DNA of 32,937 nucleotides, taken from sequence record SRR2962707_1965; one strand, given 5' to 3'. Under the pieces are notes generated by a model that was not told the origin of the DNA, made no database searches, and was given only the letters and a program-made list of their open reading frames with translations. Within the stretch, counting starts at the first letter, position 1; each line of letters starts with the position of its first letter. This document shows positions 31 to 32,818 of this stretch, one piece after another. Made by a program: the position numbers and the translations under genes.

Positions 31-312
31 CGCCCCACGGCTGATTCACGGTATTCATTTAAAAACAGTATGTTACGCCTTTCCCCCTCCGTTTCTTCGC
101 GCTCATAAGCGCACATTCAGATCCCCAGTTATCAATAACATACGATAGCGTTGTCGACGTTGTACCGGCAATCACGGAGTCCCTGGGCCGGCAACGACTG
201 CCCCGCTCACCTCTCACTTTCACGCAGTCAGGATCGGAGCATTTCCGTTTATAAGAGCGCGGATGTTTTGAGTGATATACGCGCGTATGTGCGTGCGCGT
301 TGGCTGGGCTGG

Positions 313-618: not shown

Positions 619-634
619 TATCCGGCAGACCAAC

Positions 635-647
635 AATCAATGACTTA
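635..647 (+). promoter_or_regulatory. IHF binding site
   Basis: AATCAATGACTTA is an exact match to WATCAANNNNTTR; lies between the origin-like array and the putative cos. Confidence 0.55.
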
Positions 648-707
648 GAAGCCATGCCGCGATTGAAATTCCTGGCTGTTGAAAAACCTCGGTACCAAGA
701 GCGCGCA

Positions 708-726
708 GGCGGGGCGGGGTGACCGC
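708..726 (+). other. Putative cos (cohesive end) site
   Basis: GGCGGGGCGGGGTGACCGC resembles P2 cos GGCGAGGCGGGGAAAGCAC (11 of first 12 identical); same position, downstream of the portal gene. Confidence 0.6.
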
Positions 727-777
727 GAGCGAAGCATTGGTATAGTGAACGGGAGTAAATGGCTGGAGGGCAGCATA

Positions 778-984
778 ATGAAGATCCAGATGACACATAA
801 AAAGACAGGCAAGTCCGTTGTCGTCGGCCCATTCCGGAAAGGAGTGAGTTGGGCGGAAGATTGGGATAGGAGACGTATTGAGGAATTAGCGTGGGAAAAT
901 GCCACTGAGGACAGACTGGTGGATGACTCCCAAAGGCCTTCCGACTATACCTATTCAATCATCGAGGGAGAGCCTCCATCTTAG
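778..984 (+). CDS. Hypothetical 68-aa protein (moron between cos and portal)
   Basis: ATG at 778 with GGAGG upstream and an extended -10 TGgTATAGT at 738-746; in frame with ORF 679..984. Confidence 0.55.
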   Translation: MKIQMTHKKTGKSVVVGPFRKGVSWAEDWDRRRIEELAWENATEDRLVDDSQRPSDYTYSIIEGEPPS

Positions 985-1023
985 ACCTGTTGTGATCGCT
1001 TAACTCTTCAACTGTCCGAGACG

Positions 1024-1047
1024 AAAAAAGGCCACCCGAAGGTGGCC
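1024..1047 (-). terminator. Rho-independent terminator of the P-Q operon
   Basis: Stem GGCCACC/GGTGGCC with TTCG loop on the minus strand, followed by T6. Confidence 0.85.
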
Positions 1048-1075
1048 AAACGCTGACGCTCTCGTCGAAAGAGGT

Positions 1076-2062
1076 TCAGGCGGTTGGTTCGCCCAGGCTG
1101 TAGGGCCGGAAGCGGATCACTTCCTTGCCCACGATGTCGTTCATTTCCAGCAGCCGCTCCTGCAGTGGCTCCAGTTCGTTGGCCGCGAAGACTCGGGCAG
1201 CTTTTTCCGAATCGCCGAAGCCGCTGGTGTTGGTGGGGATGATGCCCATCAGCTGAGGCGGCACGCGATGGCCGGCCAGTTGGTCGTCACGGGTGGCGTT
1301 CTTGATGTTCCAAAACTCGTCCTTGGCCGCTACTTCACTCACCGGGATCACCTGCATGCCGTCTTTCTTGCCGTTCGGGGCATACATGAACAGGTTCTTG
1401 AAGTTGCCCGGCCCCTTGCTTTCACGCAAAGCTTTGCGAAGGGCATCGATGTCTTCCTGATTCTGAGCGGGATCAGTCATGTACATGATGAACCCGGCGT
1501 GGCTTCCGTTCTGGTAATACTTCCGGCGAAATAGCGTGGCGCTTTCATTCAGCCAGGCAGACTGCAGGGATCCGATGTAATCCGGAACGCCATAGAGTTC
1601 CTGGTCGATATCGGGCTCCATCAGGTGAACAATGCTTCCTCGCGGAAACTCCTGTTTCTGCTCCCAGTCGTGAACCCACCAGTACTGATCTTCCTCGACA
1701 CCACGGCGGCAGTACTTCGCCAGAGCAGGCCGGATCCGTATCAGATTACCAAGCCGGTTGGTCAGCTGTTCCCCATAGAGGTTGCCGAACACCAGGTAAT
1801 CCAGAGCCATGCGAGAGAAATCCTGACGGCTCAGGTACTCGGTTGGCTGGAAAGACTTCACCAGAATGTTCCGTTTCACCTGGAGTGCGCTTCCATGGTG
1901 AGCCGTTGCCCGGTATGACTTGGCCAGCGCCGATTGGTCCACCGGCGGTTCGTAGTAATCCATTCCAGCCATCCAGCAGCCGGTATAGAGCATGTCATAC
2001 CGGTCCATCACCGGTACCGGGTCACCGAAGGTGAAAGCTTCAACGTGCGGTTTGGTCATCAA
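1076..2062 (-). CDS. Q: Portal protein (P2 gpQ / PBSX family)
   Basis: EAFTFGDP, YYEPP, QELYGVPDY, NESATLFRRKYY.NG.HAGFI, HRVPPQLMG motifs. Confidence 0.97.
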   Translation of the reverse strand: MMTKPHVEAFTFGDPVPVMDRYDMLYTGCWMAGMDYYEPPVDQSALAKSYRATAHHGSALQVKRNILVKSFQPTEYLSRQDFSRMALDYLVFGNLYGEQLTNRLGNLIRIRPALAKYCRRGVEEDQYWWVHDWEQKQEFPRGSIVHLMEPDIDQELYGVPDYIGSLQSAWLNESATLFRRKYYQNGSHAGFIMYMTDPAQNQEDIDALRKALRESKGPGNFKNLFMYAPNGKKDGMQVIPVSEVAAKDEFWNIKNATRDDQLAGHRVPPQLMGIIPTNTSGFGDSEKAARVFAANELEPLQERLLEMNDIVGKEVIRFRPYSLGEPTA

Positions 2063-3822
2063 TAAATCTCCATCATGCTGCCACCTTGTTCGGTTGGCCC
2101 TTCGAGGGGTTCATTTGCCAGTGCGTGCATTACCGCCCATGCCAGATCGGCGTGGCCGGTGTCTTCACGACGGCCGGATTTGTAGGTGATGTGGCGTTGG
2201 GAATCGGTCATCCCCCGGCGGATTGCCATAAAGCTCTGGGCCAGATCGCTCCAGCCGGCATCAAACTGGAGGCGACCGCGGTCGATGATATTCTGGGTTT
2301 TGATCACCAGACGGGCTTTCACGTCCGGGCTGTAGTTGAAGCGAGTCACCGCCGGAAAGAACTTCTCCACCAACTCTGCGACTGCCTCACCAAGTCCGGT
2401 GGTATCGATCCCGATGTAGGCCACGTTGTAACGGTGGGTCAGCTTCCGGAGCTCCTCGGCTTGCTGTTCATAGTCCAGGCCCCGGAAGCGCTGTTTTTCG
2501 ATTACCCGGTGGGGCTTCAGGTTGGATCTTGAGGGAGACACCACGGCCACGCCAGCACCGTCACCGTCTTCGCTACCGCCTGCCGGGTCGTACCCGATCC
2601 AGACCGTACCATCGCCGAGCGGCCGATCGGTGTATGGCTTCAGGTCCCGCCATTCCACCCAGCTGTCCACCATGCAGCGCTGCAGCTTGGCCAGCGGGAA
2701 CACGGCATGGGTGTCATCGACGAACTGGCACATCAGAAGGTTCGCGTATTCGTCATCGGAGTACTCGAGGCGAAGCTGGTCGATATCGAATAGGTCGCAC
2801 CCTCCTGCCATGGCATCTTCGACGGTAACGATCTGGCGCCACTGGCCATCACCGCAGGCCATGCCATTGGCAAGTGCAGCATGGGATGTGTCGATACTTA
2901 CGCGCTTATCTTTGGCCCGCCGCTTGTTGAACAGGTCGCCGGTCCAGAATGGGTAGGCATCATGGGTGATCGCGGACGGTGTAGAAAAGTAGGTCTGGCT
3001 CCACTTCTTGTGCATGGCCATTCCGGAGGCCACCTTCCGGAACTCCTGAAAGTTCTGAATCCAGAAGTACTCATCCATGTACAGATCGCCGTGGTAACTC
3101 TGGGCAGTACGCACGTTGGTACCGAGAAAATAAAGGGTGGCGCCATTGGGCAGAACCAAGGGATCACCCCGGAGCTCGACTCCGCAGGTATCCTTGATGA
3201 ACTGAACGATGTACTGACGGAAAACGTGTGCCTGAGCCTTTGACGCACTGAGGAAGATCTTGTTTTTGCCCGTGTGGAACGCATCCACAATCGCTTCCCG
3301 GGCAAAGTACCAGGTTGCACCGATCTGCCGTGACTTCAGGATGTTCCGGATCCGTTGGGTAAGCCCTGCCACTTTCCACTTGTGCTGGTAGTCGAAAAGC
3401 GACTCATCGAAGGCCTTTTCAATCAGTTCCAGGCCTTCCTCGCCGATATCGTTTTTGGCCTTTCTGGGCGCCCGGTTCCGCTCCTGGATCTTCGGGTTCA
3501 GATCCGATTCCCGGCCGGTCTCCTCATACTTATGGACACGAGCCAACCGTTCGAACTGCCGGCCCAGCAGATCGATTTCCTTGTAGTCCTTCCCTTCCTT
3601 CGGGTCCTTGAAGATCAGCTGGATCATCCGAGATTCGAGCGAACTCTCCACCCGCTCCATCGGTGGTGCGTCGTCCCATTTGAACCGCTTTCGCCAGGCG
3701 TTGATCAGCTGCGGGCTGATGTCCAGGTGCTCCGCAATGCGCGAAGGACGCCACCCCATCCACAGCAGAGTGCGGGCGGAGACGAACTGTTCTCTGTATT
3801 CCGATTCGACGACTTTATCCAT
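2059..3822 (-). CDS. P: Terminase large (ATPase) subunit (P2 gpP)
   Basis: RNILKSRQIGATWYFAREA, YMDEYFW, TYFSTPS, IGYDP, GHADLAWA motifs. Confidence 0.97.
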   Translation of the reverse strand: MDKVVESEYREQFVSARTLLWMGWRPSRIAEHLDISPQLINAWRKRFKWDDAPPMERVESSLESRMIQLIFKDPKEGKDYKEIDLLGRQFERLARVHKYEETGRESDLNPKIQERNRAPRKAKNDIGEEGLELIEKAFDESLFDYQHKWKVAGLTQRIRNILKSRQIGATWYFAREAIVDAFHTGKNKIFLSASKAQAHVFRQYIVQFIKDTCGVELRGDPLVLPNGATLYFLGTNVRTAQSYHGDLYMDEYFWIQNFQEFRKVASGMAMHKKWSQTYFSTPSAITHDAYPFWTGDLFNKRRAKDKRVSIDTSHAALANGMACGDGQWRQIVTVEDAMAGGCDLFDIDQLRLEYSDDEYANLLMCQFVDDTHAVFPLAKLQRCMVDSWVEWRDLKPYTDRPLGDGTVWIGYDPAGGSEDGDGAGVAVVSPSRSNLKPHRVIEKQRFRGLDYEQQAEELRKLTHRYNVAYIGIDTTGLGEAVAELVEKFFPAVTRFNYSPDVKARLVIKTQNIIDRGRLQFDAGWSDLAQSFMAIRRGMTDSQRHITYKSGRREDTGHADLAWAVMHALANEPLEGPTEQGGSMMEIY

Positions 3823-5843: not shown

Positions 5844-6680
5844 ATGGTCAGCCCAGCGAAGAAACGGTTTGAACAGGTCCGCGCCGCCCGTGAGGCGGCT
5901 GCGGCCGAGGATTTGGAAAAGGCCCAGCAGGAAACCAAGGCCAAAGACCAGGAACGGGCAGAAGCCCCGGGCAAGGAACGGCCCAACCCCTACAACCGTG
6001 GAGAGGGTGGAAAACCCCGGCAGAGCCCTGCCCGCAAGCACTTTGACCGCGCCCGGGCGAAGGCAGAGGCATCGCAGGCCACGCCGGCCAGGCCTCAAGG
6101 TGATTCCTATGAGCTCCACAAGGCCGCGATCGTCGAGGATATCCGGCGCCTGTCCGACATCCAGAGCATTGAGCGAAAGATCGAAGCGAAGAGTGAGCTA
6201 CTGCCAAACTACGAAAGCTACGTTCAAGGCGTTCTGGAAGGTGGCAAAGGTCAGCAGGACGATGTGCTGATGACTCTGATGGTTTGGTACCTGGACGTGG
6301 GCGAGCTGAAAACGGCAATGGATATTGCCGAGTACGCCGCCAATCACGGACTGGAAACCCCGGACCGGTACAAGCGCAGCACCGCGGCCCTCGTCTCTGA
6401 GGAAGTGGCCGACTTTGCCCTGAAGCTGGATAAGGAAGCCGAGAACCAGGAAGAGGTTCTGGAACAGCTCCAGCGTTGCCTGGCCCTGTTCGCAGATGCG
6501 GACATGCACGACCAGGTAAAGGCGAAGCTCTTCAAGGCTGAAGGTTCGATTCTGGACAACACCGGTCACACCGAAGCCGCAGTCGCCGCCTATGAGCGGG
6601 CGCTGAAGCTGAACGACAAGATCGGCGTGAAAAAGGACATCGAGCGCCTGAAAAAGGAACTGAAGAATTCCGGCCAATAA
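5844..6680 (+). CDS. M: Terminase small/endonuclease subunit (P2 gpM)
   Basis: QDDVLMTLMVW.LDVG, DMHDQVKAKL.K, GVKKDIERL; position after N. Confidence 0.93.
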   Translation: MVSPAKKRFEQVRAAREAAAAEDLEKAQQETKAKDQERAEAPGKERPNPYNRGEGGKPRQSPARKHFDRARAKAEASQATPARPQGDSYELHKAAIVEDIRRLSDIQSIERKIEAKSELLPNYESYVQGVLEGGKGQQDDVLMTLMVWYLDVGELKTAMDIAEYAANHGLETPDRYKRSTAALVSEEVADFALKLDKEAENQEEVLEQLQRCLALFADADMHDQVKAKLFKAEGSILDNTGHTEAAVAAYERALKLNDKIGVKKDIERLKKELKNSGQ

Positions 6681-6783
6681 CCGGACCCGAGTCGGCACCC
6701 CGACGCCAGGCGGCACGGGGCCCTGAGCCAAGGCCACGCCGGAAGCTCTACGGTCCCGTCCACCGCCTTCACCCGGAGGCAGT

Positions 6784-7245
6784 ATGAGCCTGATCGCAGC
6801 CGGTGGCACCACCGAGCCCGTCATCATCACCAACGCAGCGTTTTTCCCGGACCTGAACCTTCAGGAATTCCGCGATTCGATGCGTCTAGACGGCACCGTA
6901 ACCGACGATCGAGCCAAGCACGCCCTCGAGGCCGCCATGTTCGATGCCAACAGATCGCTGGCCGAGTACATGAAGGCCCAGAAAGATCTGGGGTTCGATG
7001 CCCTGGAAAACGTGCCGGATACCGACTGGCAACCGTCAGGCACAAACGTGCGCCTATATCTTCGTGCTGTCTGGTGCCTGGCGAAGGCCAATCTGATCGA
7101 GCGGTACCGGGATTACGACTCCACAGGGAAAGGAGAAGCCAGGGCCGAGGCCATGGATCTGACCGGTGATGATCTCAGGCGTGATGCGGCCTGGGCGTTA
7201 TCCGATATACGGGGCGCCAATCGCACCACCGTGGAGCTGATCTGA
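6784..7245 (+). CDS. L: Head completion protein (P2 gpL)
   Basis: FFPD, YLRAV, A.LIERYRDYD.T.KG, RDA.WALSDI.G..RTTVELI. Confidence 0.95.
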   Translation: MSLIAAGGTTEPVIITNAAFFPDLNLQEFRDSMRLDGTVTDDRAKHALEAAMFDANRSLAEYMKAQKDLGFDALENVPDTDWQPSGTNVRLYLRAVWCLAKANLIERYRDYDSTGKGEARAEAMDLTGDDLRRDAAWALSDIRGANRTTVELI

Positions 7246-17888: not shown

Positions 17889-19993
17889 TGGCCAAGAACC
17901 TCGACCTGCAGGTGGTACTCGCCGCCAGAGACAAGCTCACCAAACCCCTCAAGAAGATTGACGCAACCACCACCGGTACCGCCCGGGCGCTGAAACAGGC
18001 CCAGGCGGAAACCAAACGGTTGCAGAGCTCCCAGCGTGACATCTCATCCTTCCGCCGGATGGACGATGCCTTGGGCAAGAACGCCAAGGCCCTGGCTGAA
18101 TCACAGGAGCGCGTTCGCCGCCTGGGCCACGAACTCCGAACAACCAGCAAGCCCACCGCCAAACTTCGGAACGAGTACAACAAGGCCCGGCAGGAGGTGG
18201 AGAAATTCACCCGTAAGGGACAGGACCAGCGGAAGGAACTGGGCAAAGTCCGCAAGCGGCTGAGCGATGCCGGCGTGGACGTGCGCAACTTATCCGGCGA
18301 GCAACGGCGCCTGGCCGATCAGATGCAGGCTACCAACAACCGAATCCAGCGCCAGAGGAAGTATCTGGATCAGCTGGGCAAGGCCGACATATCCGGAAAG
18401 TTCAGCAACATGACCGGTGAAGTAGGCCGGTTCGGCCGCCGCACAGCTCTGGCAACTTCAGTTGCTGCTGCTAGCATCTTCGGTATTGCCAACTCCACCG
18501 CCACCCTGGGCGACCAGGTAGCCAAGACTGGCGACAAAATCGGTATCGCCCTTGGCCCCTTCCAGGAACTACGCTACGCCGCTGAGCGCTCCGGCGTGTC
18601 TACCGAGAAATTCGATTCCAGTCTGGAACGGTTCATCAAGCGAATGGGCGAAGCCACCCAAGGCACCGGCGCTGCCCGCAAGGCCTACGAGGAGTTGGGA
18701 CTTTCCGCTGAGGACCTGGCCGAGCTGACCCCAGAACAAAGCCTGGAAGTGGTGGCCGATCGGCTCTCCTCCGTGGAGAACCAGTCTCAACGTGTGGCCA
18801 TCGCCGCTCAGCTGTTCGGGCGCGAAGGTGTGGCCATGGTCAACATGCTGAAGGATGGCAGTTCAGGCCTTCAGGCCCTTAGACGCGATGCCAGAGCCAC
18901 AGGCTATGTGCTTAGCGAACAGGCCGCGCGGGACGCGGAAGCCTTCAAGGATGCAATGCTGGACGCCCAGCTGGGCATGGCTGGCATGAAGAACACCATC
19001 GGCGCCGAACTGATGCCCGCGATCACCGATATGATGGGCGATCTGTCTTCCTGGATGCGAGAGAACCGAGACCAAGTAAGCGCTTTCGCCTCCAACTTCG
19101 GTACCAAGCTCAAGAACGCCATCCCGGTGCTGCGTGATATTGCTGTCGGTGCCGCATCCACGGCAAAGACACTGGGCATGATCACCAGTAACCTCGCCAC
19201 CATGGTGGGCGGTTTCGACAACCTGGGGATGATCCTAGCCGTGGTTCTGGCCATGAAGCCCATCATGGCCATCCTCGCCTTCGGCAAGGCCATTTTCATG
19301 GCCACCAGTGCAGTCGTCGGCCTGGCCGGCGGTTTACCGGCCGTTGCAGCTGGCATCAAAGCGATCGGGGTAGCCCTTACCGCCAACCCCATCGGTCTGA
19401 TCATCGCAGCGATCGCCGGCGCCGGTTACCTGATTTACAAGAACTGGGGCGCCATCATGGGCTTCTTCAAGAGCCTGCCAGCCAAGTTCTCCGGCTTTGG
19501 ATCCATGATCATGGACGGTCTGGTAGGTGGCTTGCTGGGCGGCCTGGACAAGGTGAAGGACACCATCGTGAACGCAGGCCAGAAAACCATCGGCTGGTTT
19601 AAGGGCGTTCTCGGGATCAAGTCACCGTCCCGGGTATTCATGAGCGCTGGCCAGGACACCCTCGAGGGATACCGGAAAGGTATCCAGAAACAGGAACCGG
19701 CGGCACTGAAGCAAGTCAGCGGGTTCGGCAAGCGAGTGCGCAGTGTAGGTGCCGGCATTGCCATTGGCGCGTCCGCCCTGCCCGCTGCGGCCGGCGTCCA
19801 GTTCGACAACCGCCCACCGATCGCCACCGGCACGCCTTCTGCAGCCACTGCTGGCGATAGCGTAACGATCAATGTCTATGCAGCACCAGGGCAAAGCGAA
19901 CGAGAGATAGCGGCCCAGGTTGATCGGATCCTGCAGGAGCGCGAACGCCGTATAGCCACCCGTGCCCGCAGTGCACTTTATGACAGGGAGTAA
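17888..19993 (+). CDS. T: Tape measure protein (P2 gpT)
   Basis: L.LQV.L.A.DKLT.P start, coiled coils, ANPIGL.I.AIA...YLIY.NW, LGI.SPSRVF. Confidence 0.95.
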   Translation: MAKNLDLQVVLAARDKLTKPLKKIDATTTGTARALKQAQAETKRLQSSQRDISSFRRMDDALGKNAKALAESQERVRRLGHELRTTSKPTAKLRNEYNKARQEVEKFTRKGQDQRKELGKVRKRLSDAGVDVRNLSGEQRRLADQMQATNNRIQRQRKYLDQLGKADISGKFSNMTGEVGRFGRRTALATSVAAASIFGIANSTATLGDQVAKTGDKIGIALGPFQELRYAAERSGVSTEKFDSSLERFIKRMGEATQGTGAARKAYEELGLSAEDLAELTPEQSLEVVADRLSSVENQSQRVAIAAQLFGREGVAMVNMLKDGSSGLQALRRDARATGYVLSEQAARDAEAFKDAMLDAQLGMAGMKNTIGAELMPAITDMMGDLSSWMRENRDQVSAFASNFGTKLKNAIPVLRDIAVGAASTAKTLGMITSNLATMVGGFDNLGMILAVVLAMKPIMAILAFGKAIFMATSAVVGLAGGLPAVAAGIKAIGVALTANPIGLIIAAIAGAGYLIYKNWGAIMGFFKSLPAKFSGFGSMIMDGLVGGLLGGLDKVKDTIVNAGQKTIGWFKGVLGIKSPSRVFMSAGQDTLEGYRKGIQKQEPAALKQVSGFGKRVRSVGAGIAIGASALPAAAGVQFDNRPPIATGTPSAATAGDSVTINVYAAPGQSEREIAAQVDRILQERERRIATRARSALYDRE

Positions 19994-19999
19994 TCCGCC

Positions 20000-20476
20000 A
20001 TGATGATGACCCTCGGAATGTTTGTCTTCGAAGTCCAGTCCCTGCCATATCAGCAGCTGCAGCGCAGCACCCAGTGGCGGCACCCCAGCCAAAGCCGCGT
20101 TGGTCAGCGCCCCGCTTACCAGTACCTGGGCCCGGGTGAAGATACTATCACCCTGAGTGGCACACTCTACCCGGAGCTCACCGGCGGCCGGGTAACCCTG
20201 GACGACGTGCGCATAATGGCCGACGAAGGTAAGGCATGGCCCTTAATTGAAGGCTCTGGCCGGGTGTTCGGATTCTGGTGCGTCACTGGCGTTGAAGAAA
20301 CCAGCACCGTGTTCTTCTCCGATGGTGTTCCCCGGAAGATCGACTTCACCATCAACCTGGTGCGGGTAGACGAGGACGACTTCCAGGCCTTTCGCGACCG
20401 TGCAGCCACAAGCCGGGACGCTGCAATCGGGCTGGGGCTTTACCAGCCCAGGCGCAATAGCGGAGGCGTGGCCTGA
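20000..20476 (+). CDS. U: Tail protein U
   Basis: MM.LGMFVF....LPYQ.LQR...WRH, ITLSG.LYPELTGG, G.AWPLIEG.G. Confidence 0.95.
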   Translation: MMMTLGMFVFEVQSLPYQQLQRSTQWRHPSQSRVGQRPAYQYLGPGEDTITLSGTLYPELTGGRVTLDDVRIMADEGKAWPLIEGSGRVFGFWCVTGVEETSTVFFSDGVPRKIDFTINLVRVDEDDFQAFRDRAATSRDAAIGLGLYQPRRNSGGVA

Positions 20477-21459
20477 TGCAGCACCGCGCCCCTGATTATC
20501 GATTGGTGGTAAACGGCCGCAACATCACTCCGACAGTGAACGGCAGGCTGATAGACCTTACCCTGGATGAAACACCAGGCGATGAGGCCGACACCCTGTC
20601 CCTCACCCTCAGCGACCATGACAACGCCCTGGAGATCCCGCCCAAGGGTGCCGAGATACAGCTGGCCATCGGGTGGAAGGGCCAGGCTCTTTTCGAAAAG
20701 GGCCTGTTCATCGTGGATGAGGCTTCCTACACCTGGGCGCCAAACGTACTGAACATCACCGCCCGTAGCGCTGACATGCGCAATGGTTTGCCCACACGCC
20801 GAACCCGCAGCTGGGACCAGGTAACCCTCAGCGATCTGGTAACCACCATCGCCCGGGAAAACGAGCTGGAGCCCGTCATCGGAGGCAACCTGGCCGCCAT
20901 CAGCATCGAACATCTGGACCAGACCGACGAATCCGACCTGAACCTTCTCACCCGCCTGGGGGAACGACACGACGCGATCGCCACAGTTAAGGCCAGCCGG
21001 CTGCTATTCACTCCTCGAGGAGAAGCGGCCACCGCCAGCGGTACCGCCCTGCCCTCCATAACCGTAAGGCCTAGCAGCGGCGACAGCGGTACCTACCGCG
21101 AAACCGATCGCGACGGCTACACCGGTGTCATCGCTTTCTGGGACGATGTCGACGCCGGCCAGCAGGTCCAAGTGCAGGTGGGCACGGAAGAACGGGTGAA
21201 GCGCCTGCGAGGCACCTATGCCAATGAGAGCGAGGCAAAGGCCGCTGCTCGGGCAGAGCTACGCAGGCTAAACCGAGGAGAGGCTAAGCTATCGATAACG
21301 CTGGCCACAGGTAGGCCGGATGTTGGGCCGGAGTGGCGACTACAGGCAGAAGGATTCAAGCGGCAGATCAACGGGCGGGAATGGGTAGTAACCAGGGCCA
21401 GTCACAGTTTGAGTGATGGGGGACTGGTCACAACGTTAGATACAGAGACAAAATCTTGA
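20476..21459 (+). CDS. D: Late control / tail hub protein D
   Basis: EAD.L.L.L.D.D, KG.F.VDE, HLDQT.ESD...LTRL, H.LSD.G..T. Confidence 0.95.
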   Translation: MQHRAPDYRLVVNGRNITPTVNGRLIDLTLDETPGDEADTLSLTLSDHDNALEIPPKGAEIQLAIGWKGQALFEKGLFIVDEASYTWAPNVLNITARSADMRNGLPTRRTRSWDQVTLSDLVTTIARENELEPVIGGNLAAISIEHLDQTDESDLNLLTRLGERHDAIATVKASRLLFTPRGEAATASGTALPSITVRPSSGDSGTYRETDRDGYTGVIAFWDDVDAGQQVQVQVGTEERVKRLRGTYANESEAKAAARAELRRLNRGEAKLSITLATGRPDVGPEWRLQAEGFKRQINGREWVVTRASHSLSDGGLVTTLDTETKS

Positions 21460-21492
21460 GATACTGGAAAACGGTTTAAGAATACACGCCAA

Positions 21493-22776
21493 CTACGATA
21501 GAGATTTAACCAACATCATCGATATCAGATTGACCCCCTGATTAAACGCATCACGACCACCATTTAACTCGTAATATATAAAAGTGCCAATTAAAGCAGG
21601 CATCCATCCTAAGAAACGCATCCCAAACAACATGTTTCCTATCCAACGCTCGCCACGATCTAAACTTTTGTTCATTTCCTGTATTCTAGACTTTAGATCT
21701 TCGGGATAACGGGCGCTCTCACCTTCAAGCGAGTCAGAAACAATACGGCGAGCATGCCTCACCTGCTTAAATTGACGCTTTTGGTTAACAACAGAAGCTG
21801 CGACAATTAATGCCGCACCTACGAGGGCCAAAACAGAAAGAAATTGCTGAGCAATACCCTCTACTTTTAAAAGCGCAACCAAACCGGCAAACGATGCTGG
21901 AATGGCGAGAAGCTTCCCAGAAATATCCGATAGAACTTTGGAGTAACTGGCTGCAAGCTCCAACTCCGCATCAGCTACTTCCTTCTTAGCTTTCTGAAAA
22001 GCGAACCCGCTTAAATAAACCTCTAAGTTATTATGATATAACCGTAGGAACTCGTCCCATTCAACAACCAGTTTCTTAAAATTCTCGGCCTCATTATCTA
22101 CTGACCTATTGCAGAACTCAGCAATTGACGTGTGGAACACACCAAGACGAGCAGTGTAATGTGGATCCTCGTACTGACTGTCGTCGCACAGAGATCTGAC
22201 AATATCCAAACTTATCGCAGATGCGGCGTAAACCACCGAAGACACAACCTTCGTTTCTATAACGATAGGAATGTCATGCCTGTCACTTTCGTGTTTTACA
22301 AAAACCAACCTCTCACCTAGCTGAGCATTTGTCTTATCTTTATAGTGAGAAAGGTTGACCAAATATCTGATAAGCTCGCAAGTCTTTACAAGGCCATTTG
22401 AAATTTCGGAATTATCATCTGCTTCGAGACTATAAAAGTCCTCTTGAACCAAATAGTACTCAGACGGCAATATTCCCTGAGATACCCTTGGCGATTTATT
22501 TAGCATGTCACAAAGGGACTGATAAAACCTACTATCAGTATTAGATGGAACCAATATCTCAAATTCCACCTTGCTGCCAGAATCTGGAAGGTCGACACTC
22601 TCCATCACAAACTGACCGTCTACCCGACAACTACGGATCGAGGAGCTATTCTTTGCGTAGATTCGGGCAAGTAAATCCTTTGCACCCTCATATTCAATGG
22701 TTGCCGCAAAGCAGCCATCGACTAAACCAGGCTTGCCGGATCTCCTATATAAATCTACAAAAGTCCGTATGGTCAT
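21493..22776 (-). CDS. Hypothetical 427-aa protein with about 3 C-terminal TM helices (cargo)
   Basis: Low-GC ORF; hydrophobic segments LLAIPASFAGLVALL, FLSVLALVGAALIVAASVV and MLFGMRFLGWMPALIGTFIYY; 4-bp overlap with the upstream gene. Confidence 0.85.
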   Translation of the reverse strand: MTIRTFVDLYRRSGKPGLVDGCFAATIEYEGAKDLLARIYAKNSSSIRSCRVDGQFVMESVDLPDSGSKVEFEILVPSNTDSRFYQSLCDMLNKSPRVSQGILPSEYYLVQEDFYSLEADDNSEISNGLVKTCELIRYLVNLSHYKDKTNAQLGERLVFVKHESDRHDIPIVIETKVVSSVVYAASAISLDIVRSLCDDSQYEDPHYTARLGVFHTSIAEFCNRSVDNEAENFKKLVVEWDEFLRLYHNNLEVYLSGFAFQKAKKEVADAELELAASYSKVLSDISGKLLAIPASFAGLVALLKVEGIAQQFLSVLALVGAALIVAASVVNQKRQFKQVRHARRIVSDSLEGESARYPEDLKSRIQEMNKSLDRGERWIGNMLFGMRFLGWMPALIGTFIYYELNGGRDAFNQGVNLISMMLVKSLS

Positions 22777-23882
22777 TGCTGCCTAGCATCCAGATCATTG
22801 ATTATTTTTTGCTTTACATCGTCAGGCAATTCGGTGAATGTCAAAGAGCCAGTTTTCCTATCATAATATACTGTCGCCCCAGGTTCATCCCCCAAAACGC
22901 TATACTCCACATTAAATGACCACGCCTTAGTTTTTGCGGTGACCTGAGAAAATGCATTGGTACTAGTTTTGTTAACATTAAACTGAAACGGAACAGCATT
23001 TGACTCGTCATTCAAAGTATCGATATATTTCTGAGTTATTTCTTCAGCCTCATCCGAAACACTTAACGGCAAATGTTTTTGGAATATAGCTGAAACTTCA
23101 TGTAAGTTTACTGGCTGTTGATTCTCAGCTTTATCTTTTAAAAAACTGACCATTTCAGCGCGCATGTCATGTGCGTGATGCTTCAGTTTCCCGTTATCGC
23201 TATAGATAGCAAAAGCTTCGCGAATTACAGCTGTCGTTGCACGAGATGTGGCTACGCCGGGTATACAATCCAGCGCCAGAATAAAATACGTGGAGGCCCC
23301 AGCCGATGCCGCTGGGCTAAGGAAGTTAAGGTAGCTAATCTCTTGCTTTTCTTCGTCTGTAGCCGAATTGTACTCTGAGAATTTCTGAAAATTAATTCTC
23401 GCGGCCTGATGTAGCTTATTTGTTTCCACCTCAGTCACCAGCTCAGGAACCATTTTCTCTGTAATTCTAAGTCCAGGCCGCTGCTTTACCATAGCTACCA
23501 TGAAGAACCTGACACCATCTCTCAGGTAATCATAAAACACAATATAACCACCGGTAGCCGCAGACGCTGAATGGGCCGTTCGCATCAGTTCGTTAATGGC
23601 TGTTGTACTCAAGTCTTCAAAATTCTGGTCTTCAATAGAATGAAGCTCGTAATAAGACATAAAGTGATCAGCAAATTTTCCTCTCCTTGACGGTTCGCAG
23701 AAAGTGCCGTACTGAACCCGATTGTGTTTTTTTCCATAGGCATCGAGTATAGCTTCTAACAATCGAACGACACCTTTGTTTGTCGTATCAAGTATGCTGC
23801 CCCAATCCGGATCTTCTACCGGCCCATTCTTATCTTTGTTGAATCCATGGATAATAACTTTGTTTATAGTTATACCGTTCAT
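22773..23882 (-). CDS. Nucleoid-associated protein NdpA/YejK (NA37) family, divergent (cargo)
   Basis: I.KVIIH.F.K, ATGGYIVF..Y, F.VAMVK, KLHQAARIN, YL.FL, YF..AL.C motifs; AAGGAGGT RBS at 23894-23901. Confidence 0.8.
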   Translation of the reverse strand: MNGITINKVIIHGFNKDKNGPVEDPDWGSILDTTNKGVVRLLEAILDAYGKKHNRVQYGTFCEPSRRGKFADHFMSYYELHSIEDQNFEDLSTTAINELMRTAHSASAATGGYIVFYDYLRDGVRFFMVAMVKQRPGLRITEKMVPELVTEVETNKLHQAARINFQKFSEYNSATDEEKQEISYLNFLSPAASAGASTYFILALDCIPGVATSRATTAVIREAFAIYSDNGKLKHHAHDMRAEMVSFLKDKAENQQPVNLHEVSAIFQKHLPLSVSDEAEEITQKYIDTLNDESNAVPFQFNVNKTSTNAFSQVTAKTKAWSFNVEYSVLGDEPGATVYYDRKTGSLTFTELPDDVKQKIINDLDARQQ

Positions 23883-23945
23883 TATTTTTTCGTACCTCCT
23901 TTTTAATAATTATATCCAGCGCGTTTTTATTAGTTATTTATTCTG

Positions 23946-24623
23946 CTAAAACACCCGGCCCGCGCGCCAGTAACAAAGCCCTACAATCTCAATATTCCCA
24001 AAGTTCTCCGGATGAATAGTCTCAGGTTGATACAGAGCGTTATCACTGGACACCCGCAGGCTGCCATCAGCCATTGTCTGCAAACGCTTAATCCGGAGTG
24101 AATCGCCAATCCGAATAGCAAAAACACCATCTGGCTTCTTCCTGGAGCAATCGATCAGAACCGTATCGCCATCAGAGAGTGTGCCGTCCATCGAATCTCC
24201 AGAGACTCTAATAGAAGCCAGGTCTTTTGCATGAAGGCCCTCACGGGCGAGCCAGTCATTGCGAAATTTGATGTAGCTAATCACTCGCTCATGACTGAAA
24301 AAGGAGCCATTGCCAGCGCTCGCTTCCACGTCATAAAGCGGTACTTCGGTGTAATCAACATCTTGAGCGACTGGAAAACTGTCAACCTGACCGTCTGAGT
24401 CTCGGCCAATAATCAGCCAATCAAGACTAATACCTTTATCCATAGCAAGCTGGACGCACTGATCGTATGGAACCGTCCCTCGCTTGCGCCAGTTATGAAC
24501 ACTTGCCTGCTTAATATCGAAATATGCCGCGACATCCTTGTCCATCGTGACACCAAGGACACTTTTCATTCGGCTTAATATACGCTCAGCCAAAAGACTT
24601 TTATCAGTCAGATAGTTTTCCAT
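23946..24623 (-). CDS. cI: CI-type repressor: HTH + S24 autopeptidase
   Basis: HTH (DKDVA..F.I....VHNWRKRG.VP, SLDWL..G); ASAG.G cleavage site; GDSM Ser and RIKRL Lys catalytic motifs. Confidence 0.93.
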   Translation of the reverse strand: MENYLTDKSLLAERILSRMKSVLGVTMDKDVAAYFDIKQASVHNWRKRGTVPYDQCVQLAMDKGISLDWLIIGRDSDGQVDSFPVAQDVDYTEVPLYDVEASAGNGSFFSHERVISYIKFRNDWLAREGLHAKDLASIRVSGDSMDGTLSDGDTVLIDCSRKKPDGVFAIRIGDSLRIKRLQTMADGSLRVSSDNALYQPETIHPENFGNIEIVGLCYWRAGRVF

Positions 24624-24711
24624 AGTTAAATTTCATCCGTCATTTGGTTGATTGCTTATCCAAATGGCGTTTATCCTTCTGTGTAATTCAGCGTTACACA
24701 GAGGATACACC
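24624..24711. promoter_or_regulatory. Lysis-lysogeny switch: divergent promoters and operators
   Basis: Inverted repeat CGTCATTTGG/CCAAATGGCG (24638-24669); TTGATT-18-TATCCT rightward promoter candidate; second inverted repeat at 24678-24702. Confidence 0.65.
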
Positions 24712-24915
24712 ATGCAAGGTGCAAAAAAACCCAGCCCCAGTCACCGCGCCCCTGTCGGTGTTCTAACTGCGAAGCCGATCGCGCTTCGCCTTCTCACGGA
24801 AGAACGTTCCGCCCTGGAGCAGGCCGCCTTGGCGGAAGGCCGTTCTCTGGCATCCCAGGCCCGCATCTTCTTTCTGCAAGGCCTGAATGACTACCAGCGC
24901 AAAACGTCTGCCTGA
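24712..24915 (+). CDS. Small DNA-binding protein at the Cro position (ribbon-helix-helix-like)
   Basis: GAGGA RBS; KPIALRL..EER..LE..A..EGRS; divergent from cI. Confidence 0.7.
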   Translation: MQGAKKPSPSHRAPVGVLTAKPIALRLLTEERSALEQAALAEGRSLASQARIFFLQGLNDYQRKTSA

Positions 24916-24935
24916 AGCACTGAAGGAGTAGCCGC

Positions 24936-25157
24936 ATGTATCAGGACCCAAAACGCATCCGCAAACACCGTGTGAGCCTAAATCTGGACGACTACGAGGC
25001 CGCCGTGATCAACGCACTGGTGGATTACACCGGTACCGACAGAGCCAGCCTGCTACGCCAGATGCTGATCGCTCAGGCTGAGGCGGCACTTTTGCCGACG
25101 CCTCCAAGCATGGCCGGTGGTGCGCCACTTTCCGAGGCCCACATTCGCACCATTTGA
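24936..25157 (+). CDS. Small early protein (RHH-like)
   Basis: AAGGAG RBS; MY.DPKRIR...V.L.LD.YE...I.AL..YTG...A.LLR. Confidence 0.75.
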   Translation: MYQDPKRIRKHRVSLNLDDYEAAVINALVDYTGTDRASLLRQMLIAQAEAALLPTPPSMAGGAPLSEAHIRTI

Positions 25158-25169
25158 GGTCCTCAAACG

Positions 25170-25358
25170 ATGCCGGAAATCACCCTGGAACTGACGGACC
25201 AACAGGCCGAACTGCTGGACACCATTCGCAAGCAGCAAGGCCTTGAAACCATGGATCAGGCCGCCGAGTGGCTGATCAAACAACGCATGCGAGGAGCCAG
25301 CCTGAAGTTGACCGGGCGAAACCGGGCACTTCACGCCGTAGGAGGCCCCAGAAAGTGA
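25170..25358 (+). CDS. Hypothetical early protein
   Basis: GAGGT RBS; 62 aa; coupled to the next gene. Confidence 0.7.
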   Translation: MPEITLELTDQQAELLDTIRKQQGLETMDQAAEWLIKQRMRGASLKLTGRNRALHAVGGPRK

Positions 25359-25885
25359 AGCTCAACCAGATAACCCGCAATTACCTGACCATCGGCTGCC
25401 CGGCTTGCGGTGAATCCTGTTCGATTCAGTCCAGCAGGGCGATCCAGCAGAAAGGCAAAGATGCCTTCGTTCAGTGCCGGAACATCGAATGCGGATACCG
25501 CGGCTCCGTAGAGGTTTCCTACGGGCCGGTCCTGCAGGCCAAGAACCCCGGCACCCCAGATGTTGAAAACCAGCAGCGGCTCCAGTCCGGAGTTCGGAAC
25601 AACTTCCTCCGGATCCTCTGCCCCCACTGCGCAGGCGTCTGCAGGGTTCGCACCAGCGTGCAGATGATCTCGGCACAGCGGCAGCTTTACGTGTTCTGCC
25701 AGGATGCGGACCACTGCGGATACAAAGGCGTGGTGTTCCTCACCCATACCGATCGGCTTTCTCTGGACCCAGACGGCAATGTCCGCCAGATCCCTCTCGC
25801 TCCGGAAGTCCGCGAGCAATGCCAGCAGGAAATGGAGCTGGCCTACGAGAAGTACTCACCTAAAAAGAAGGACGCAACGCGATGA
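25355..25885 (+). CDS. ogr: Late-gene activator with two tandem Ogr/Delta zinc fingers
   Basis: GTG with AGGAGG RBS; CPAC-X22-CRNIEC and CPHC-X22-CQDADHC. Confidence 0.85.
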   Translation: MKLNQITRNYLTIGCPACGESCSIQSSRAIQQKGKDAFVQCRNIECGYRGSVEVSYGPVLQAKNPGTPDVENQQRLQSGVRNNFLRILCPHCAGVCRVRTSVQMISAQRQLYVFCQDADHCGYKGVVFLTHTDRLSLDPDGNVRQIPLAPEVREQCQQEMELAYEKYSPKKKDATR

Positions 25886-26214
25886 ACGAAGTAGCCCAAA
25901 GCATGACTGACGCCGCCTACTCCCAGCTTCTGGCCCTTCGCAAAGGCAGCACAGATGCTCGGGAATGCATCGAAATGACCGTAGATAGCCTGATGGAGGA
26001 ATACCAGTGCTCCAGCCGCCGGGCGTCCCTGCTGGTTATTCGTGCCTGGCACGACCTGGAAGGCACCAAACAGCCGAAGGCCTACGTGGATGTGAGCCTG
26101 ACCACCGGAAACACCGTGGTTGTTCACGACCAGTCTGGCCGCACCAGCATCTTCTCGGTTCAGGAGCTGCTGAAGCTTCGGGACCAGGCCACAGCAATCC
26201 AACTCCCCGCCTGA
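25882..26214 (+). CDS. Hypothetical early protein
   Basis: ATGA coupling to ogr; 110 aa. Confidence 0.7.
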   Translation: MNEVAQSMTDAAYSQLLALRKGSTDARECIEMTVDSLMEEYQCSSRRASLLVIRAWHDLEGTKQPKAYVDVSLTTGNTVVVHDQSGRTSIFSVQELLKLRDQATAIQLPA

Positions 26215-26229
26215 TCCGGAGCGCTCCGA

Positions 26230-31570: not shown

Positions 31571-32818
31571 ATGGCCCCACCACGCAGAAAACCTGGCCAG
31601 GAGTGGCTTGCCCGCTACCCTGGCCTTTACATCAATTCCCGAGATGGCGTCTTTCACGTGCGCCATCCGGTTACCCGCAAACAGGGCAGCCTTCAGACCA
31701 AAGACAGGCAAACCGCTATCCGCCGCTGGGCCATGCTCCAGCAAGTGTGGGAACAATCCTCGACCGAGTTCGACGTTCAGCAAATGGCCGGCACAATGGC
31801 CGCGGGCCGCCCCGCCCAGTCAGCAAGCAGGACCACCCTGCGGCAGTACCTGAAGCGCTGGCGAACGGAAGTACTCGGCCACCGGGTAATCAATGGCCGC
31901 GTGGAATGGGCAGAATGCCTTGTGCTGAGTGAGCGCGGCCGCAACCGAGGCCGCCCGATCGCCGAACCAACCCGGCGCGATTATGCCAACGATGCGCAGC
32001 AGTTGGAGGCCAGCGACCATTCCAACTTCACCCTGACCGACCCGGCCTTGCTGCGGAAGATCCGCCGCCTGCTGTCATCCTGGAACACCAAGCCGGTGCA
32101 CTACAACGGCCTGCGAAACACACTCTCGCGGGTGTTCAGCCATGCGGTTGAGGATGGTCTGATCGACCGAAACCCAATACCCGATGTGAAGAAGGCCACA
32201 GAGCCAAAGCGGGAAGTCCTCATCCCCGACGATGCCTACGCCGAAATATCCGCGCAGCTACTCGAGCACAAGCTGCACCGCCAAATCCACGACGGCACCT
32301 GGCGGGCAAAGATCTGCGACATGATCTACATGATGAGCCAGCAACCGATCGATGTGTTCGGCCTACGGGAAGACCAGATCCACGACGACCAGGGACCGAT
32401 GGGAGAGATCCACTTCGCCAGGCACAAAACCGGCGTGGCCATCATCCTTGAGATGAACGAAGACCTGCGCCACCTGGTGGACTGGTTCCGCACCTTCAAA
32501 CGGCAGCAGGGCATTATCTCCCCGTACCTGATGGTGTACCCCTCTTACTTCGATAAGCGCAGCCGACACCAGCCGGTGAAACACCGGTTCATGCAGCTTT
32601 CGTGGGCGCAGGCCTGCAAGGATGCCGGCTACGGTGGCCAGTACCAGCTGCGGGATCTCAGGAAGAAAGGACTGACGGACGAGTTTGTTTCCCAGGGCGA
32701 GAACAACAAAGGTGGCCACCAGACCGAGGCTATGCGCCGGCACTACCGCCTGATCACGCCGCCGGAACGGAGCAAGTCCACCCTCAAATCGATCGAGTCA
32801 GCCAAGCGAAAACAGTGA
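31571..32818 (+). CDS. int: Tyrosine integrase (divergent)
   Basis: Arm-binding-like N-terminus, LSRVF..AV..GLI..NP, KTG, RDLR, GH......HY; adjacent to att. Confidence 0.9.
   Translation: MAPPRRKPGQEWLARYPGLYINSRDGVFHVRHPVTRKQGSLQTKDRQTAIRRWAMLQQVWEQSSTEFDVQQMAGTMAAGRPAQSASRTTLRQYLKRWRTEVLGHRVINGRVEWAECLVLSERGRNRGRPIAEPTRRDYANDAQQLEASDHSNFTLTDPALLRKIRRLLSSWNTKPVHYNGLRNTLSRVFSHAVEDGLIDRNPIPDVKKATEPKREVLIPDDAYAEISAQLLEHKLHRQIHDGTWRAKICDMIYMMSQQPIDVFGLREDQIHDDQGPMGEIHFARHKTGVAIILEMNEDLRHLVDWFRTFKRQQGIISPYLMVYPSYFDKRSRHQPVKHRFMQLSWAQACKDAGYGGQYQLRDLRKKGLTDEFVSQGENNKGGHQTEAMRRHYRLITPPERSKSTLKSIESAKRKQ

What the first reader, a model, noticed from the sequence alone, without database searches (positions are those of the whole stretch)
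21493..23882. Candidate anti-phage system: NdpA/YejK-family DNA-binding protein coupled to a multi-TM protein
Seen: two large minus-strand genes with a 4-bp ATGA overlap, inserted between gene D and cI. A sampled 60-nt line here is about 40% GC versus about 62% in the tail sheath gene. Gene 1 carries NA37/YejK-like motifs. Gene 2 has a ~280-aa soluble N-terminus, a coiled-coil-like stretch and about 3 TM helices. Known: P2-like prophages carry anti-phage systems at variable loci, and DNA-binder plus membrane-protein pairs occur in defence (e.g. Kiwa KwaA/KwaB). Inference: the NdpA-like protein senses or binds invading DNA and the TM partner is an effector or scaffold. I do not recognise this pair as a named system.
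Basis: partly seen in the sequence, partly recalled or inferred. Interest (0 to 1): 0.85.

Follow-up and report, generated by a model that had tools for sequence, protein, structure and literature searches.

The report
Prophage nucleoid-protein plus membrane-effector defence pair
A P2-like prophage carries, in a swappable cargo slot, two overlapping genes (a YejK-like DNA-binding protein and a membrane-anchored partner) that are distant, untested relatives of anti-phage systems described in 2025-2026, so the pair is real and probably defensive but is not a new kind of system.

Summary
Two minus-strand genes, A (22773..23882, 369 aa) and B (21493..22776, 427 aa), overlap by ATGA. They lie in a 41-44% GC insert between gpD and the cI repressor of a complete P2-like prophage with about 60% GC.

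A is a full-length NA37/YejK protein (Pfam E 1e-33). B has an acidic alpha/beta N-domain with no PDB fold match and a C-terminal helical membrane region.

The pair is not unnamed. A and B match the two NCBIfam models of the anti-phage system DS-1 (E 1e-27 and 2e-22), far below the equivalog cut-offs. The layout matches type II PANGU, a NAP sensor plus a membrane effector with an acidic N-domain.

B's family has 908 cluster representatives. An A homologue sits directly upstream in 18 of 18 loci.

Two sister prophages hold a different two-gene cassette at exactly this slot. Three distant P2-like proviruses hold this pair in the same slot.

Verdict: a divergent, untested member of a known defence class. 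Function and mechanism are inferred by homology only.

The parts
22773..23882 (-). Gene A: 369-aa YejK/NdpA-like nucleoid-associated protein (putative sensor, Pag2A/DS-1A-like)
   Evidence: ORF. Pfam NA37 E 1.1e-33, full length. phrog_3767 'nucleoid associated protein' E 2.9e-53. NCBIfam DS1_1_antiphage 96.9 bits (cut-off 330) and YejK equivalog 95.8 bits (cut-off 341). PDB YejK 9be2_A E 0.0024.
21493..22776 (-). Gene B: 427-aa partner with an acidic N-terminal domain and a C-terminal membrane region (putative effector, Pag2B/DS-1B-like)
   Evidence: ORF. phrog_5023 E 2.3e-52. NCBIfam DS1_2_antiphage E 1.7e-22, 80.1 bits (cut-off 315). Profile search gave 908 cluster representatives at E<=1e-3.
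22057..22776 (-). Gene B residues 1-240: acidic alpha/beta N-terminal domain (candidate NAP-binding 'DNA-mimic' domain)
   Evidence: Residues 1-285 have net charge -14 and pI 4.9. The first 280 residues are acidic (net -7 to -22) in 17 of 17 family members examined. AF2 model of the domain alone has pLDDT 88.4 and pTM 0.84. No Foldseek PDB hit at E<=1e-3. Best VIA-align Z was 4.8.
21778..21924 (-). Gene B residues 285-333: hydrophobic two-helix hairpin (predicted transmembrane)
   Evidence: Kyte-Doolittle 19-aa windows of 1.6 or more, peak 2.66. Helices 291-304 and 308-351 in the AF2 model.
21562..21642 (-). Gene B residues about 379-405: third, weaker hydrophobic helix
   Evidence: Below the 1.6 threshold in this protein. 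The matching segment passes the threshold in 13 of the 16 homologues examined.
22773..22776 (-). ATGA start/stop overlap of genes A and B (translational coupling)
   Evidence: Sequence read. In 16 homologous loci the A-B spacing is -11 to +12 bases.
23883..23945 (-). 63-base spacer between the cI stop and the gene A start, with AGGAGG and a TATAAT-like hexamer
   Evidence: Sequence read. The consensus scan found no full sigma-70 site here, so an own promoter or read-through from cI is inference.
21450..23947 (.). Swappable low-GC cargo segment of the prophage
   Evidence: Sister prophages G002 (97% and 92% identity) and G001 (95%) match window 18000-21449 and 23948-27500 but not this segment. 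They hold a different 2114-base two-gene cassette there. GC is 0.41-0.44.
23946..24623 (-). cI-type repressor directly upstream, same strand (context)
   Evidence: Peptidase_S24 E 2.4e-16 and Phage_CI_repr E 7e-15.
20476..21459 (+). Tail gene D, convergent with gene B (context; 33-base spacer 21460-21492)
   Evidence: Pfam Phage_GPD E 9.2e-13. Sequence read.

Best explanation
The two genes form one prophage-borne anti-phage cassette of the 'nucleoid-associated protein plus membrane effector' class (DS-1 / type II PANGU). It sits in a cargo slot between tail gene D and the repressor gene of a P2-like prophage.

Proposed mechanism, carried over from the PANGU preprint and inferred for this locus: protein A coats the host nucleoid in the lysogen. 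When an infecting lytic phage degrades the host chromosome, A is released. Free A binds the acidic N-terminal domain of the membrane-anchored protein B. B's helical membrane region then damages membrane integrity, so the infected cell stops supporting phage growth (abortive infection). This protects both the lysogen population and the prophage.

Shown here:
- the gene anatomy;
- homology of both proteins to the two DS-1 components;
- strict conservation of the pair;
- the acidic N-domain and the membrane region;
- the swappable prophage slot.

Inferred:
- expression in the lysogen;
- A-B binding;
- the trigger;
- membrane damage;
- protection itself.
For: (1) Both proteins hit the two component models of one validated system, in the right gene order. 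A matches NF053868 'nucleoid-associated anti-phage protein' at E 1.2e-27. B matches NF053869 'anti-phage protein' at E 1.7e-22, and that is B's only hit below E 0.01. In a sample of B's family, 109 of 109 members also hit NF053869, best E 4.3e-38.

(2) The DefensePredictor paper states that a YejK nucleoid-associated domain was newly validated in defence (passages).

(3) The PANGU preprint defines type II as NAP Pag2A plus TM effector Pag2B. Both genes are needed against T4. Pag2B has an N-terminal acidic domain and a C-terminal TM domain. Pag2A binds that acidic domain with KD 19 nM and leaves the nucleoid on T4 infection. Gene B has the same layout: N-terminal net charge -14 and pI 4.9, with a TM hairpin at 285-333.

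(4) The pairing is invariant. An A homologue lies directly upstream on the same strand in 11 of 12 loci by tblastn. The twelfth locus, cut by a contig end, still carries the last 102 residues of an A homologue (hhalign probability 99.8%). Pairing also holds in 6 of 6 provirus contigs. Spacing is -11 to +12 bases. Pairwise identities of A and B correlate at r = 0.91 over 17 loci, and 0 of 2000 permutations reached that value.

(5) The slot is a cargo slot. Two sister prophages carry a different two-gene cassette at the same breakpoints. Three distant P2-like proviruses (gpD 43-53% identical) carry this pair between the early/repressor region and gpD. Two lambdoid proviruses carry it between a Q-like antiterminator and the downstream lysis and packaging genes (an endolysin identified in L025 only, large terminase in both).

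(6) The pair is co-oriented with cI, 63 bases downstream of it. This fits expression in the lysogen.
Against: - No experiment exists for this pair or this subfamily.
- Both proteins score far below the DS-1 equivalog cut-offs (96.9 against 330 bits; 80.1 against 315 bits). None of 109 family members came near the cut-off. This is a sister clade, not DS-1 itself.
- I could not obtain Pag2A/Pag2B or DS-1 sequences because supplements are closed. Sequence homology to PANGU type II is therefore unverified; only the architecture matches.
- The PANGU work is an unreviewed preprint. It says itself that how Pag2A activates Pag2B remains undetermined.
- Protein A is acidic overall (pI 5.5), and its DNA binding is not tested.
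- No consensus promoter was found upstream of A.
- Neighbours of the pair in chromosomal loci are mixed. They include some defence genes (one PtuA at 1e-124, AAA_21 twice) and mobile-element genes, but also housekeeping genes. Defence-island enrichment is therefore not shown.
- PADLOC v2 (2023) gives no hit, as expected for systems published later.
Confidence: 0.7

Rival explanations
1. The cassette is a defence, but with a different trigger. Protein A recognises incoming phage DNA directly, or B blocks DNA entry at the membrane (superinfection exclusion). It does not report host-genome degradation.
For: - The pair is prophage-borne and co-oriented with the repressor, like classical exclusion genes.
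- B is membrane-anchored.
- This clade is only distantly related to the validated systems, so the trigger could differ.
Against: - The only mechanistic data for this layout point to release of the NAP from the damaged host nucleoid.
- The conserved acidic N-domain of B (17 of 17 members) fits a NAP-docking surface better than a channel-blocking role.
Confidence: 0.13
2. The pair serves the prophage's own biology rather than defence. For example, a phage-encoded nucleoid protein could compact or tether phage or host DNA to the membrane during lysogeny or replication.
For: Stand-alone NA37 genes occur in many lytic and temperate phages: F116-like Pseudomonas phages, Acinetobacter and Sinorhizobium phages (17 of the 18 records are such distant hits at 20-23% identity). 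Phages therefore do use NAPs for other purposes.
Against: - Those phage NAPs are much more distant.
- The pair is replaceable cargo that is absent from sister prophages, so it is not needed for the phage life cycle.
- It moves between unrelated phage types and chromosomal sites as a unit.
Confidence: 0.08
3. The pair is a toxin-antitoxin or addiction module. B is a membrane toxin and A is its antitoxin, and together they stabilise the prophage.
For: - Two tightly coupled genes, one of which encodes a membrane protein.
- A weak SLATT-like hit in B's membrane region (E 0.011).
Against: - In the PANGU preprint, neither gene alone nor the pair was toxic, and both genes were required for defence.
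- The SLATT hit is below its cut-off (15.7 against 41 bits), and 0 of 109 family members show it at E<=0.001.
Confidence: 0.05

Closest known systems
DS-1 (DefensePredictor, Science 2026, PMC13092281; NCBIfam NF053868 DS1_1_antiphage and NF053869 DS1_2_antiphage)
   Same: A two-gene system with a YejK-like nucleoid-associated protein first and a partner protein second. Both window proteins match the respective models (E 1.2e-27 and 1.7e-22). All 109 sampled members of B's family match the DS1_2 model.
   Different: - Scores are about a quarter to a third of the equivalog cut-offs (96.9 of 330; 80.1 of 315).
- The DS1_2 model has 337 positions, against 427 residues here. The match covers residues 81-341 only, so the first 80 residues and the last helices are not shared with the model.
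- That DS-1 is the YejK-containing system is my inference from the NCBIfam names and the order of the paper's domain list. The main text does not use the string 'DS-1', and table S8 is in closed supplements.
Type II PANGU (Pag2A + Pag2B; PANGU-Ecu from E. coli; bioRxiv 10.64898/2026.04.06.716658)
   Same: A bicistronic NAP gene followed by an effector with an acidic N-terminal domain and a C-terminal TM region. The preprint describes an abortive-infection defence that needs both genes. Gene B's charge and hydropathy profile fits this layout.
   Different: - No sequence comparison was possible because the sequences are not in the text I could read.
- The preprint has 0 occurrences of 'prophage', whereas this copy sits in a P2-like prophage slot.
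- The activation step of Pag2B is unknown even for the reference system.
Housekeeping YejK/NdpA of E. coli (Pfam NA37; PDB 9be2)
   Same: Protein A matches the NA37 fold family over its full length and weakly matches the solved YejK chain (E 0.0024).
   Different: - It scores below the YejK equivalog cut-off (95.8 of 341 bits).
- It is encoded on foreign low-GC prophage cargo.
- It is always coupled to gene B.
   Same: A membrane protein plus a DNA-associated partner used in defence.
   Different: No PADLOC model, Kiwa models included, matches either protein. The domain families and the gene order are different.

Membership tests
DS-1 (NCBIfam equivalogs NF053868 / NF053869) | Protein A reaches the curated cut-off of NF053868 (330 bits) | tested here: not met
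   96.9 bits, E 1.2e-27
DS-1 (NCBIfam equivalogs NF053868 / NF053869) | Protein B reaches the curated cut-off of NF053869 (315 bits) | tested here: not met
   80.1 bits, E 1.7e-22. The best of 109 family members reached E 4.3e-38.
DS-1 (NCBIfam equivalogs NF053868 / NF053869) | Two adjacent co-directional genes, NAP first and partner second | tested here: met
   Conserved in 18 of 18 loci.
Type II PANGU | YejK-like NAP gene (NA37 domain) | tested here: met
   Pfam NA37 E 1.1e-33, profile positions 1-324 of 325
Type II PANGU | Bicistronic operon; the preprint's criterion is adjacent genes less than 40 bp apart | tested here: met
   4-base overlap
Type II PANGU | Effector with an acidic N-terminal domain and a C-terminal transmembrane domain | tested here: met
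   Residues 1-285 have net charge -14 and pI 4.9. Hydrophobic hairpin at 285-333. Helical C-terminal part in the AF2 model.
Type II PANGU | Effector sequence belongs to the preprint's Cluster 2 (homology to Pag2B) | not testable with these tools
Only indirect support exists, through DS-1 model hits.
Type II PANGU | The NAP binds the effector's N-domain, both genes are required, and the cassette protects against phage | not testable with these tools
   Needs pull-down or BLI and plaque assays
Type II PANGU | Linkage to known defence genes within 10 kb (the preprint's filter) | tested here: inconclusive
   Among 118 neighbour ORFs of 11 homologous loci there was one PtuA (1e-124), two AAA_21 and methyltransferases, but also housekeeping genes. 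The window itself is a prophage slot, and the alternative cargo there holds a WYL-domain protein.
SLATT membrane effector domain | Match to a SLATT model above its cut-off | tested here: not met
   NF033634 SLATT_1 scored 15.7 bits against a cut-off of 41, E 0.011. No Pfam SLATT hit at E<=0.1. 0 of 109 family members matched at E<=0.001.
Housekeeping YejK (NF001557 equivalog) | Score above the curated cut-off of 341 bits | tested here: not met
   95.8 bits
Kiwa and other PADLOC v2 systems | Match to any PADLOC protein model | tested here: not met
   0 families at E<=1 for both proteins

The most novel reading that the evidence does not exclude
Gene B's family has 908 cluster representatives at E<=1e-3 and 200 at E<=1e-30. 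It may be a large, distinct and experimentally untouched subtype of NAP-coupled defence. The N-terminal docking domain is a fold with no solved analogue (best Z 4.8). The three-helix membrane effector may form a pore by a mechanism not yet described. The D-to-repressor junction of this P2-like phage lineage, which is distinct from P2's classical Z/fun and tin/old loci (recalled), may be an unreported defence hotspot that also carries an uncharacterised TM+WYL two-gene cassette.
Probability: 0.3. Interest if true: 0.45.

Novelty: new member of a known kind. Interest (0 to 1): 0.3.

Why it matters
If the cassette protects, the NAP-sensor defence class would extend beyond the E. coli systems tested so far. 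It would reach a large divergent clade carried by temperate phages of marine and halophilic gammaproteobacteria.

It would also provide a natural comparison set. The same cassette sits in two different kinds of prophage cargo slot, and an alternative unknown cassette sits at the same breakpoints. That set could be used to study how prophages exchange defence cargo.

The effector step, meaning how a NAP switches on a membrane protein, is still open for the reference system. A second, divergent pair with a confidently modelled N-domain could help resolve it.

The finding does not change the current picture of what kinds of defence exist.

Tried and rejected
- **Complex prediction of A with B residues 1-245.** The verdict was 'no answer' (score 0.00, mark 0.34; alignments not used; controls not run). 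This is no evidence either way.
- **Fold search with the whole B model.** Foldseek against PDB gave no hit at E<=1e-3. VIA-align wide gave only generic long-helix and bundle matches (Z up to 13.8, within the tool's stated noise for helical models) over residues 244-410. These include CorA, ClyA and designed pores, and I draw no homology from them.
- **Fold search with the N-domain alone.** Foldseek gave no hit at E<=1e-3. The best VIA-align match was Z 4.8, the Lon N-domain with 70 aligned residues. Not meaningful.
- **PDB sequence search with B's profile.** 0 hits at E<=1.
- **Search for a true DS-1B.** The NF053869 model was run over 400 scored genomes of the class (401 drawn; one could not be scored). 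It found 0 matches over the cut-off and only 2 marginal matches at about 20 bits. No DS-1 reference sequence was obtained.
- **Megablast of window 9000-32937 against 50,697 phage records.** Only four short matches covering 2% of the query. There is no close catalogued phage.
- **ESM Atlas for B.** Only unnamed 'hypothetical protein' clusters.
- **Promoter scan.** No consensus sigma-70 site in the cI-A spacer.
- **SLATT lead.** Rejected as unsupported.
- **tRNA scan of the window.** None found.
- **Earlier-findings look-ups by place and by sequence.** Both empty.
Full report
**Observation**

One search lists two minus-strand ORFs at exactly the reported coordinates. Gene A is 22773..23882 (369 aa) and gene B is 21493..22776 (427 aa). 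One search shows the ATGA start/stop overlap.

Gene D of the tail lies at 20476..21459 on the + strand (Pfam Phage_GPD, E 9e-13). It ends 33 bases from the stop of gene B, in convergent orientation. A cI-type repressor (Peptidase_S24 plus Phage_CI_repr) ends 63 bases upstream of gene A on the same strand.

GC content is 0.41-0.44 over 21501-24000, against about 0.59-0.63 on both sides.

**The element around it**

PHROG and Pfam scans identify the following genes:
- portal (1076..2062, -)
- large terminase (2059..3822, -)
- major head protein
- baseplate protein
- tail fibre
- sheath
- tape measure
- a tail protein at the position of P2 gene U (20000..20476)
- gpD
- cI
- a double Ogr/Delta zinc-finger protein (25268..25885)
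- a 902-aa primase
- an integrase (31571..32818)

This is the gene order of a complete P2-like prophage. That this order is P2-like is my recollection of the P2 map. No catalogued phage is close at the DNA level: four short matches among 50,697 records.

**What the two proteins are**

Protein A is a full-length NA37/YejK-family protein. Pfam gives E 1.1e-33 over profile positions 1-324 of 325. phrog_3767 'nucleoid associated protein' gives E 2.9e-53. It weakly matches the solved YejK chain 9be2_A (E 0.0024).

Protein B has no Pfam family above threshold, but it belongs to phrog_5023 (E 2.3e-52).
- Hydropathy shows a two-helix hydrophobic hairpin at residues 285-333 and a weaker third hydrophobic stretch near 379-405.
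- Residues 1-285 are acidic (net -14, pI 4.9), and the C-terminal part is basic (pI 10).
- The AF2 model (pLDDT 80) has an alpha/beta domain up to about residue 238, followed by long helices at 240-288, 291-304, 308-351, 359-404 and 408-426.
- Modelled alone, the N-domain is confident (pLDDT 88.4, pTM 0.84). It has no solved analogue that I could find: Foldseek gave nothing at E<=1e-3 and the best VIA-align Z was 4.8.

**The pair is already a described kind**

NCBIfam gives the key result. Protein A matches NF053868, 'DS1_1_antiphage, nucleoid-associated anti-phage protein', at E 1.2e-27. Protein B matches NF053869, 'DS1_2_antiphage, anti-phage protein', at E 1.7e-22. Both scores are far below the equivalog cut-offs (96.9 of 330 bits; 80.1 of 315 bits).

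PADLOC v2 (2023) has no hit, as expected for systems published later.

Two papers are relevant.
- DefensePredictor (Science 2026, PMC13092281). I read passages only. It says that a YejK nucleoid-associated domain was newly validated in defence among its DS-numbered systems. The main text never writes 'DS-1'. Equating DS-1 with the YejK system rests on the NCBIfam names and on the order of the paper's domain list, and table S8 in the closed supplements would settle it.
- The PANGU preprint (bioRxiv 10.64898/2026.04.06.716658). I read the abstract, sections 3, 11 and 12, and passages. It defines PANGU as bicistronic NAP-containing anti-phage operons.
  - Type II is NAP Pag2A plus transmembrane effector Pag2B, and both are required against T4 with an abortive-infection phenotype.
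  - Pag2B has an N-terminal acidic 'DNA-mimicking' domain and a C-terminal TM domain.
  - Pag2A binds the acidic domain at KD 19 nM and leaves the nucleoid on T4 infection.
  - How Pag2B is activated is left open.

Gene B's layout fits that description. I could not compare sequences with Pag2B.

**Size and coherence of the family**

A profile of 13 B homologues (A1) was searched against 1.84 billion cluster representatives. It found 908 at E<=1e-3, 516 at E<=1e-10 and 200 at E<=1e-30. Most are full-length proteins of about 400-430 aa.

I then scanned a sample of 109 members: the window's own protein plus 108 taken from the 145 other proteins of 380-500 aa held. All 109 match the DS1_2 model. 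The best is E 4.3e-38, so none is an equivalog. Gene B therefore belongs to a large sister clade of DS-1B.

**Pairing**

- Twelve loci were found through B: Klebsiella phage P7641 plus 11 genome contigs. In 11 of them, tblastn finds an A homologue (32-40% identity) directly upstream on the same strand.
- The twelfth locus (L008) is cut 325 bases upstream by the contig end. That stub still encodes the last 102 residues of an A homologue (hhalign probability 99.8%).
- Six of six provirus contigs also carry the pair.
- The total is 18 of 18. L009 and L010 are near-duplicates from two strains of one species.
- A-B spacing is -11 to +12 bases in 16 loci.
- Pairwise identities of A and B correlate at r = 0.91 over 17 loci. 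L008 (partial A) and L010 (duplicate) were left out. None of 2000 permutations reached that value. Kin share history, so this shows inheritance as a unit and does not prove physical co-evolution.
- The acidic N-terminal part is conserved in 17 of 17 (net -7 to -22), and a third hydrophobic segment passes the threshold in 13 of the 16 homologues.
- Named hosts include Vreelandella, Halomonas, Salinicola, Pseudomonas, Pseudoalteromonas, Psychromonas, Enterovibrio, a Porticoccaceae MAG, a Desulfomicrobium MAG and a contig binned as Methanosarcina.

**A swappable slot**

Two sister prophages are G002 (a provirus record, 97% and 92% identity) and G001 (95%). They match window 18000-21449 and 23948-27500 but not 21450-23947. 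In place of the missing segment they carry a 2114-base segment, 99% identical between the two. It has two genes co-oriented with cI:
- a 310-aa protein with N-terminal hydrophobic helices and a WYL domain (Pfam E 6e-8);
- a 344-aa protein with no family hit.

Conversely, three distant P2-like proviruses (L022-L024; gpD 43-53% and gpU 53-70% identical to the window's) carry an A-B pair only 33-39% identical to this one in the same place. There it sits between the early/repressor region and a convergent gpD.

Two lambdoid proviruses (L025, L027) carry the pair downstream of a Q-like antiterminator and upstream of the late genes: an endolysin (identified in L025 only) and the large terminase (both). 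In L026 the pair is flanked by a DNA methyltransferase and an HNH endonuclease.

The cassette therefore behaves as mobile cargo that settles in prophage moron slots.

Around the chromosomal copies the neighbours are mixed. Among 118 ORFs there was one PtuA at 1e-124, two AAA_21, four HTH_3, two S24, transposases, an antiterminator Q and methyltransferases, but also plain housekeeping genes. I do not claim defence-island enrichment.

**Mechanism**

My best reading, at about 0.7 overall, is that this is a prophage-encoded abortive-infection system of the DS-1 / type II PANGU class.

The sequence data show:
- the NAP identity of A;
- the acidic domain plus membrane region of B;
- the strict pairing;
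- the cargo status.

The rest is inferred from the preprint. A coats the nucleoid. Degradation of the host genome by a phage releases it. Free A docks on B's acidic domain. B then compromises the membrane.

Expression in the lysogen is inferred from co-orientation with cI and from the AGGAGG and TATAAT-like motifs in the 63-base spacer. The consensus scan found no full promoter there.

The rivals are a different trigger or an exclusion mechanism (0.13), a role in the phage's own DNA organisation (0.08), and a toxin-antitoxin module (0.05). Each is listed with its tests.

**Earlier notes of this scan**

A word search returned eight earlier reports on similar cassettes in other genomes. All reach the same reading (distant relative of DS-1 / type II PANGU). 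One of them (e1-479136) describes the same D-to-repressor slot in another P2-like prophage.

These are AI notes and not independent evidence. The claims they share with this report were re-derived here.

**Verdict**

The claim that the pair is unnamed no longer holds. This is a divergent, untested member of a known kind, so interest is modest.

What remains open and mildly novel:
- the size and divergence of this clade;
- the unmatched fold of the docking domain;
- the unknown effector mechanism;
- the D-cI slot with its alternative TM+WYL cassette.

Noticed in passing
L020 234-1166 and 1258-2292 (G002:C1:8600-11100); same in L021 (G001): Sister prophages carry a different two-gene cassette at the same D-cI slot. 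One gene encodes a 310-aa protein with N-terminal hydrophobic helices and a C-terminal WYL domain (Pfam E 6e-8; PADLOC WYL E 4.5e-10). The other encodes a 344-aa protein with no family hit. This is a candidate uncharacterised defence pair.
   Followed up: partly
window 1-1075: The region left of the portal gene has lower GC (0.48-0.49) than the prophage body. Its longest ORF is 116 aa. It may be the prophage end or attachment region, or a decayed cargo slot.
   Followed up: no
window 25268-25885 (+): A 205-aa protein has two Ogr/Delta-like zinc-finger stretches (Pfam PF04606, E 3.6e-16, 2 stretches). This is a duplicated late-gene activator rather than the single-domain Ogr of P2 (P2 comparison recalled).
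   Followed up: no
L004 (contig JBFHIK010000160.1, 6286 bases): A complete A-B pair lies on a short contig binned as a Methanosarcina MAG. This is either a mis-binned bacterial or phage contig, or a rare archaeal occurrence.
   Followed up: no
L025 3141-3710 to 6654-7181; L027 3109-3702; L001 (Klebsiella phage P7641) 3821-6182: In lambdoid proviruses the same cassette sits just downstream of a Q-like antiterminator, with an endolysin further downstream in L025. In the isolated Klebsiella phage P7641 both genes are annotated only as hypothetical proteins.
   Followed up: partly
window 23955-23970 (-): A GC-rich hairpin with a weak T tail overlaps the last codons of cI. If it acts as a terminator, the A-B pair would need its own promoter in the 63-base spacer.
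   Followed up: no
L022 1226-3617 and 6327-7337; L024 3134-3700 and 6563-7006: In two of the distant P2-like proviruses the D-cI slot holds further small ORFs beside the A-B pair. This suggests the slot accumulates several cargo modules.
   Followed up: no
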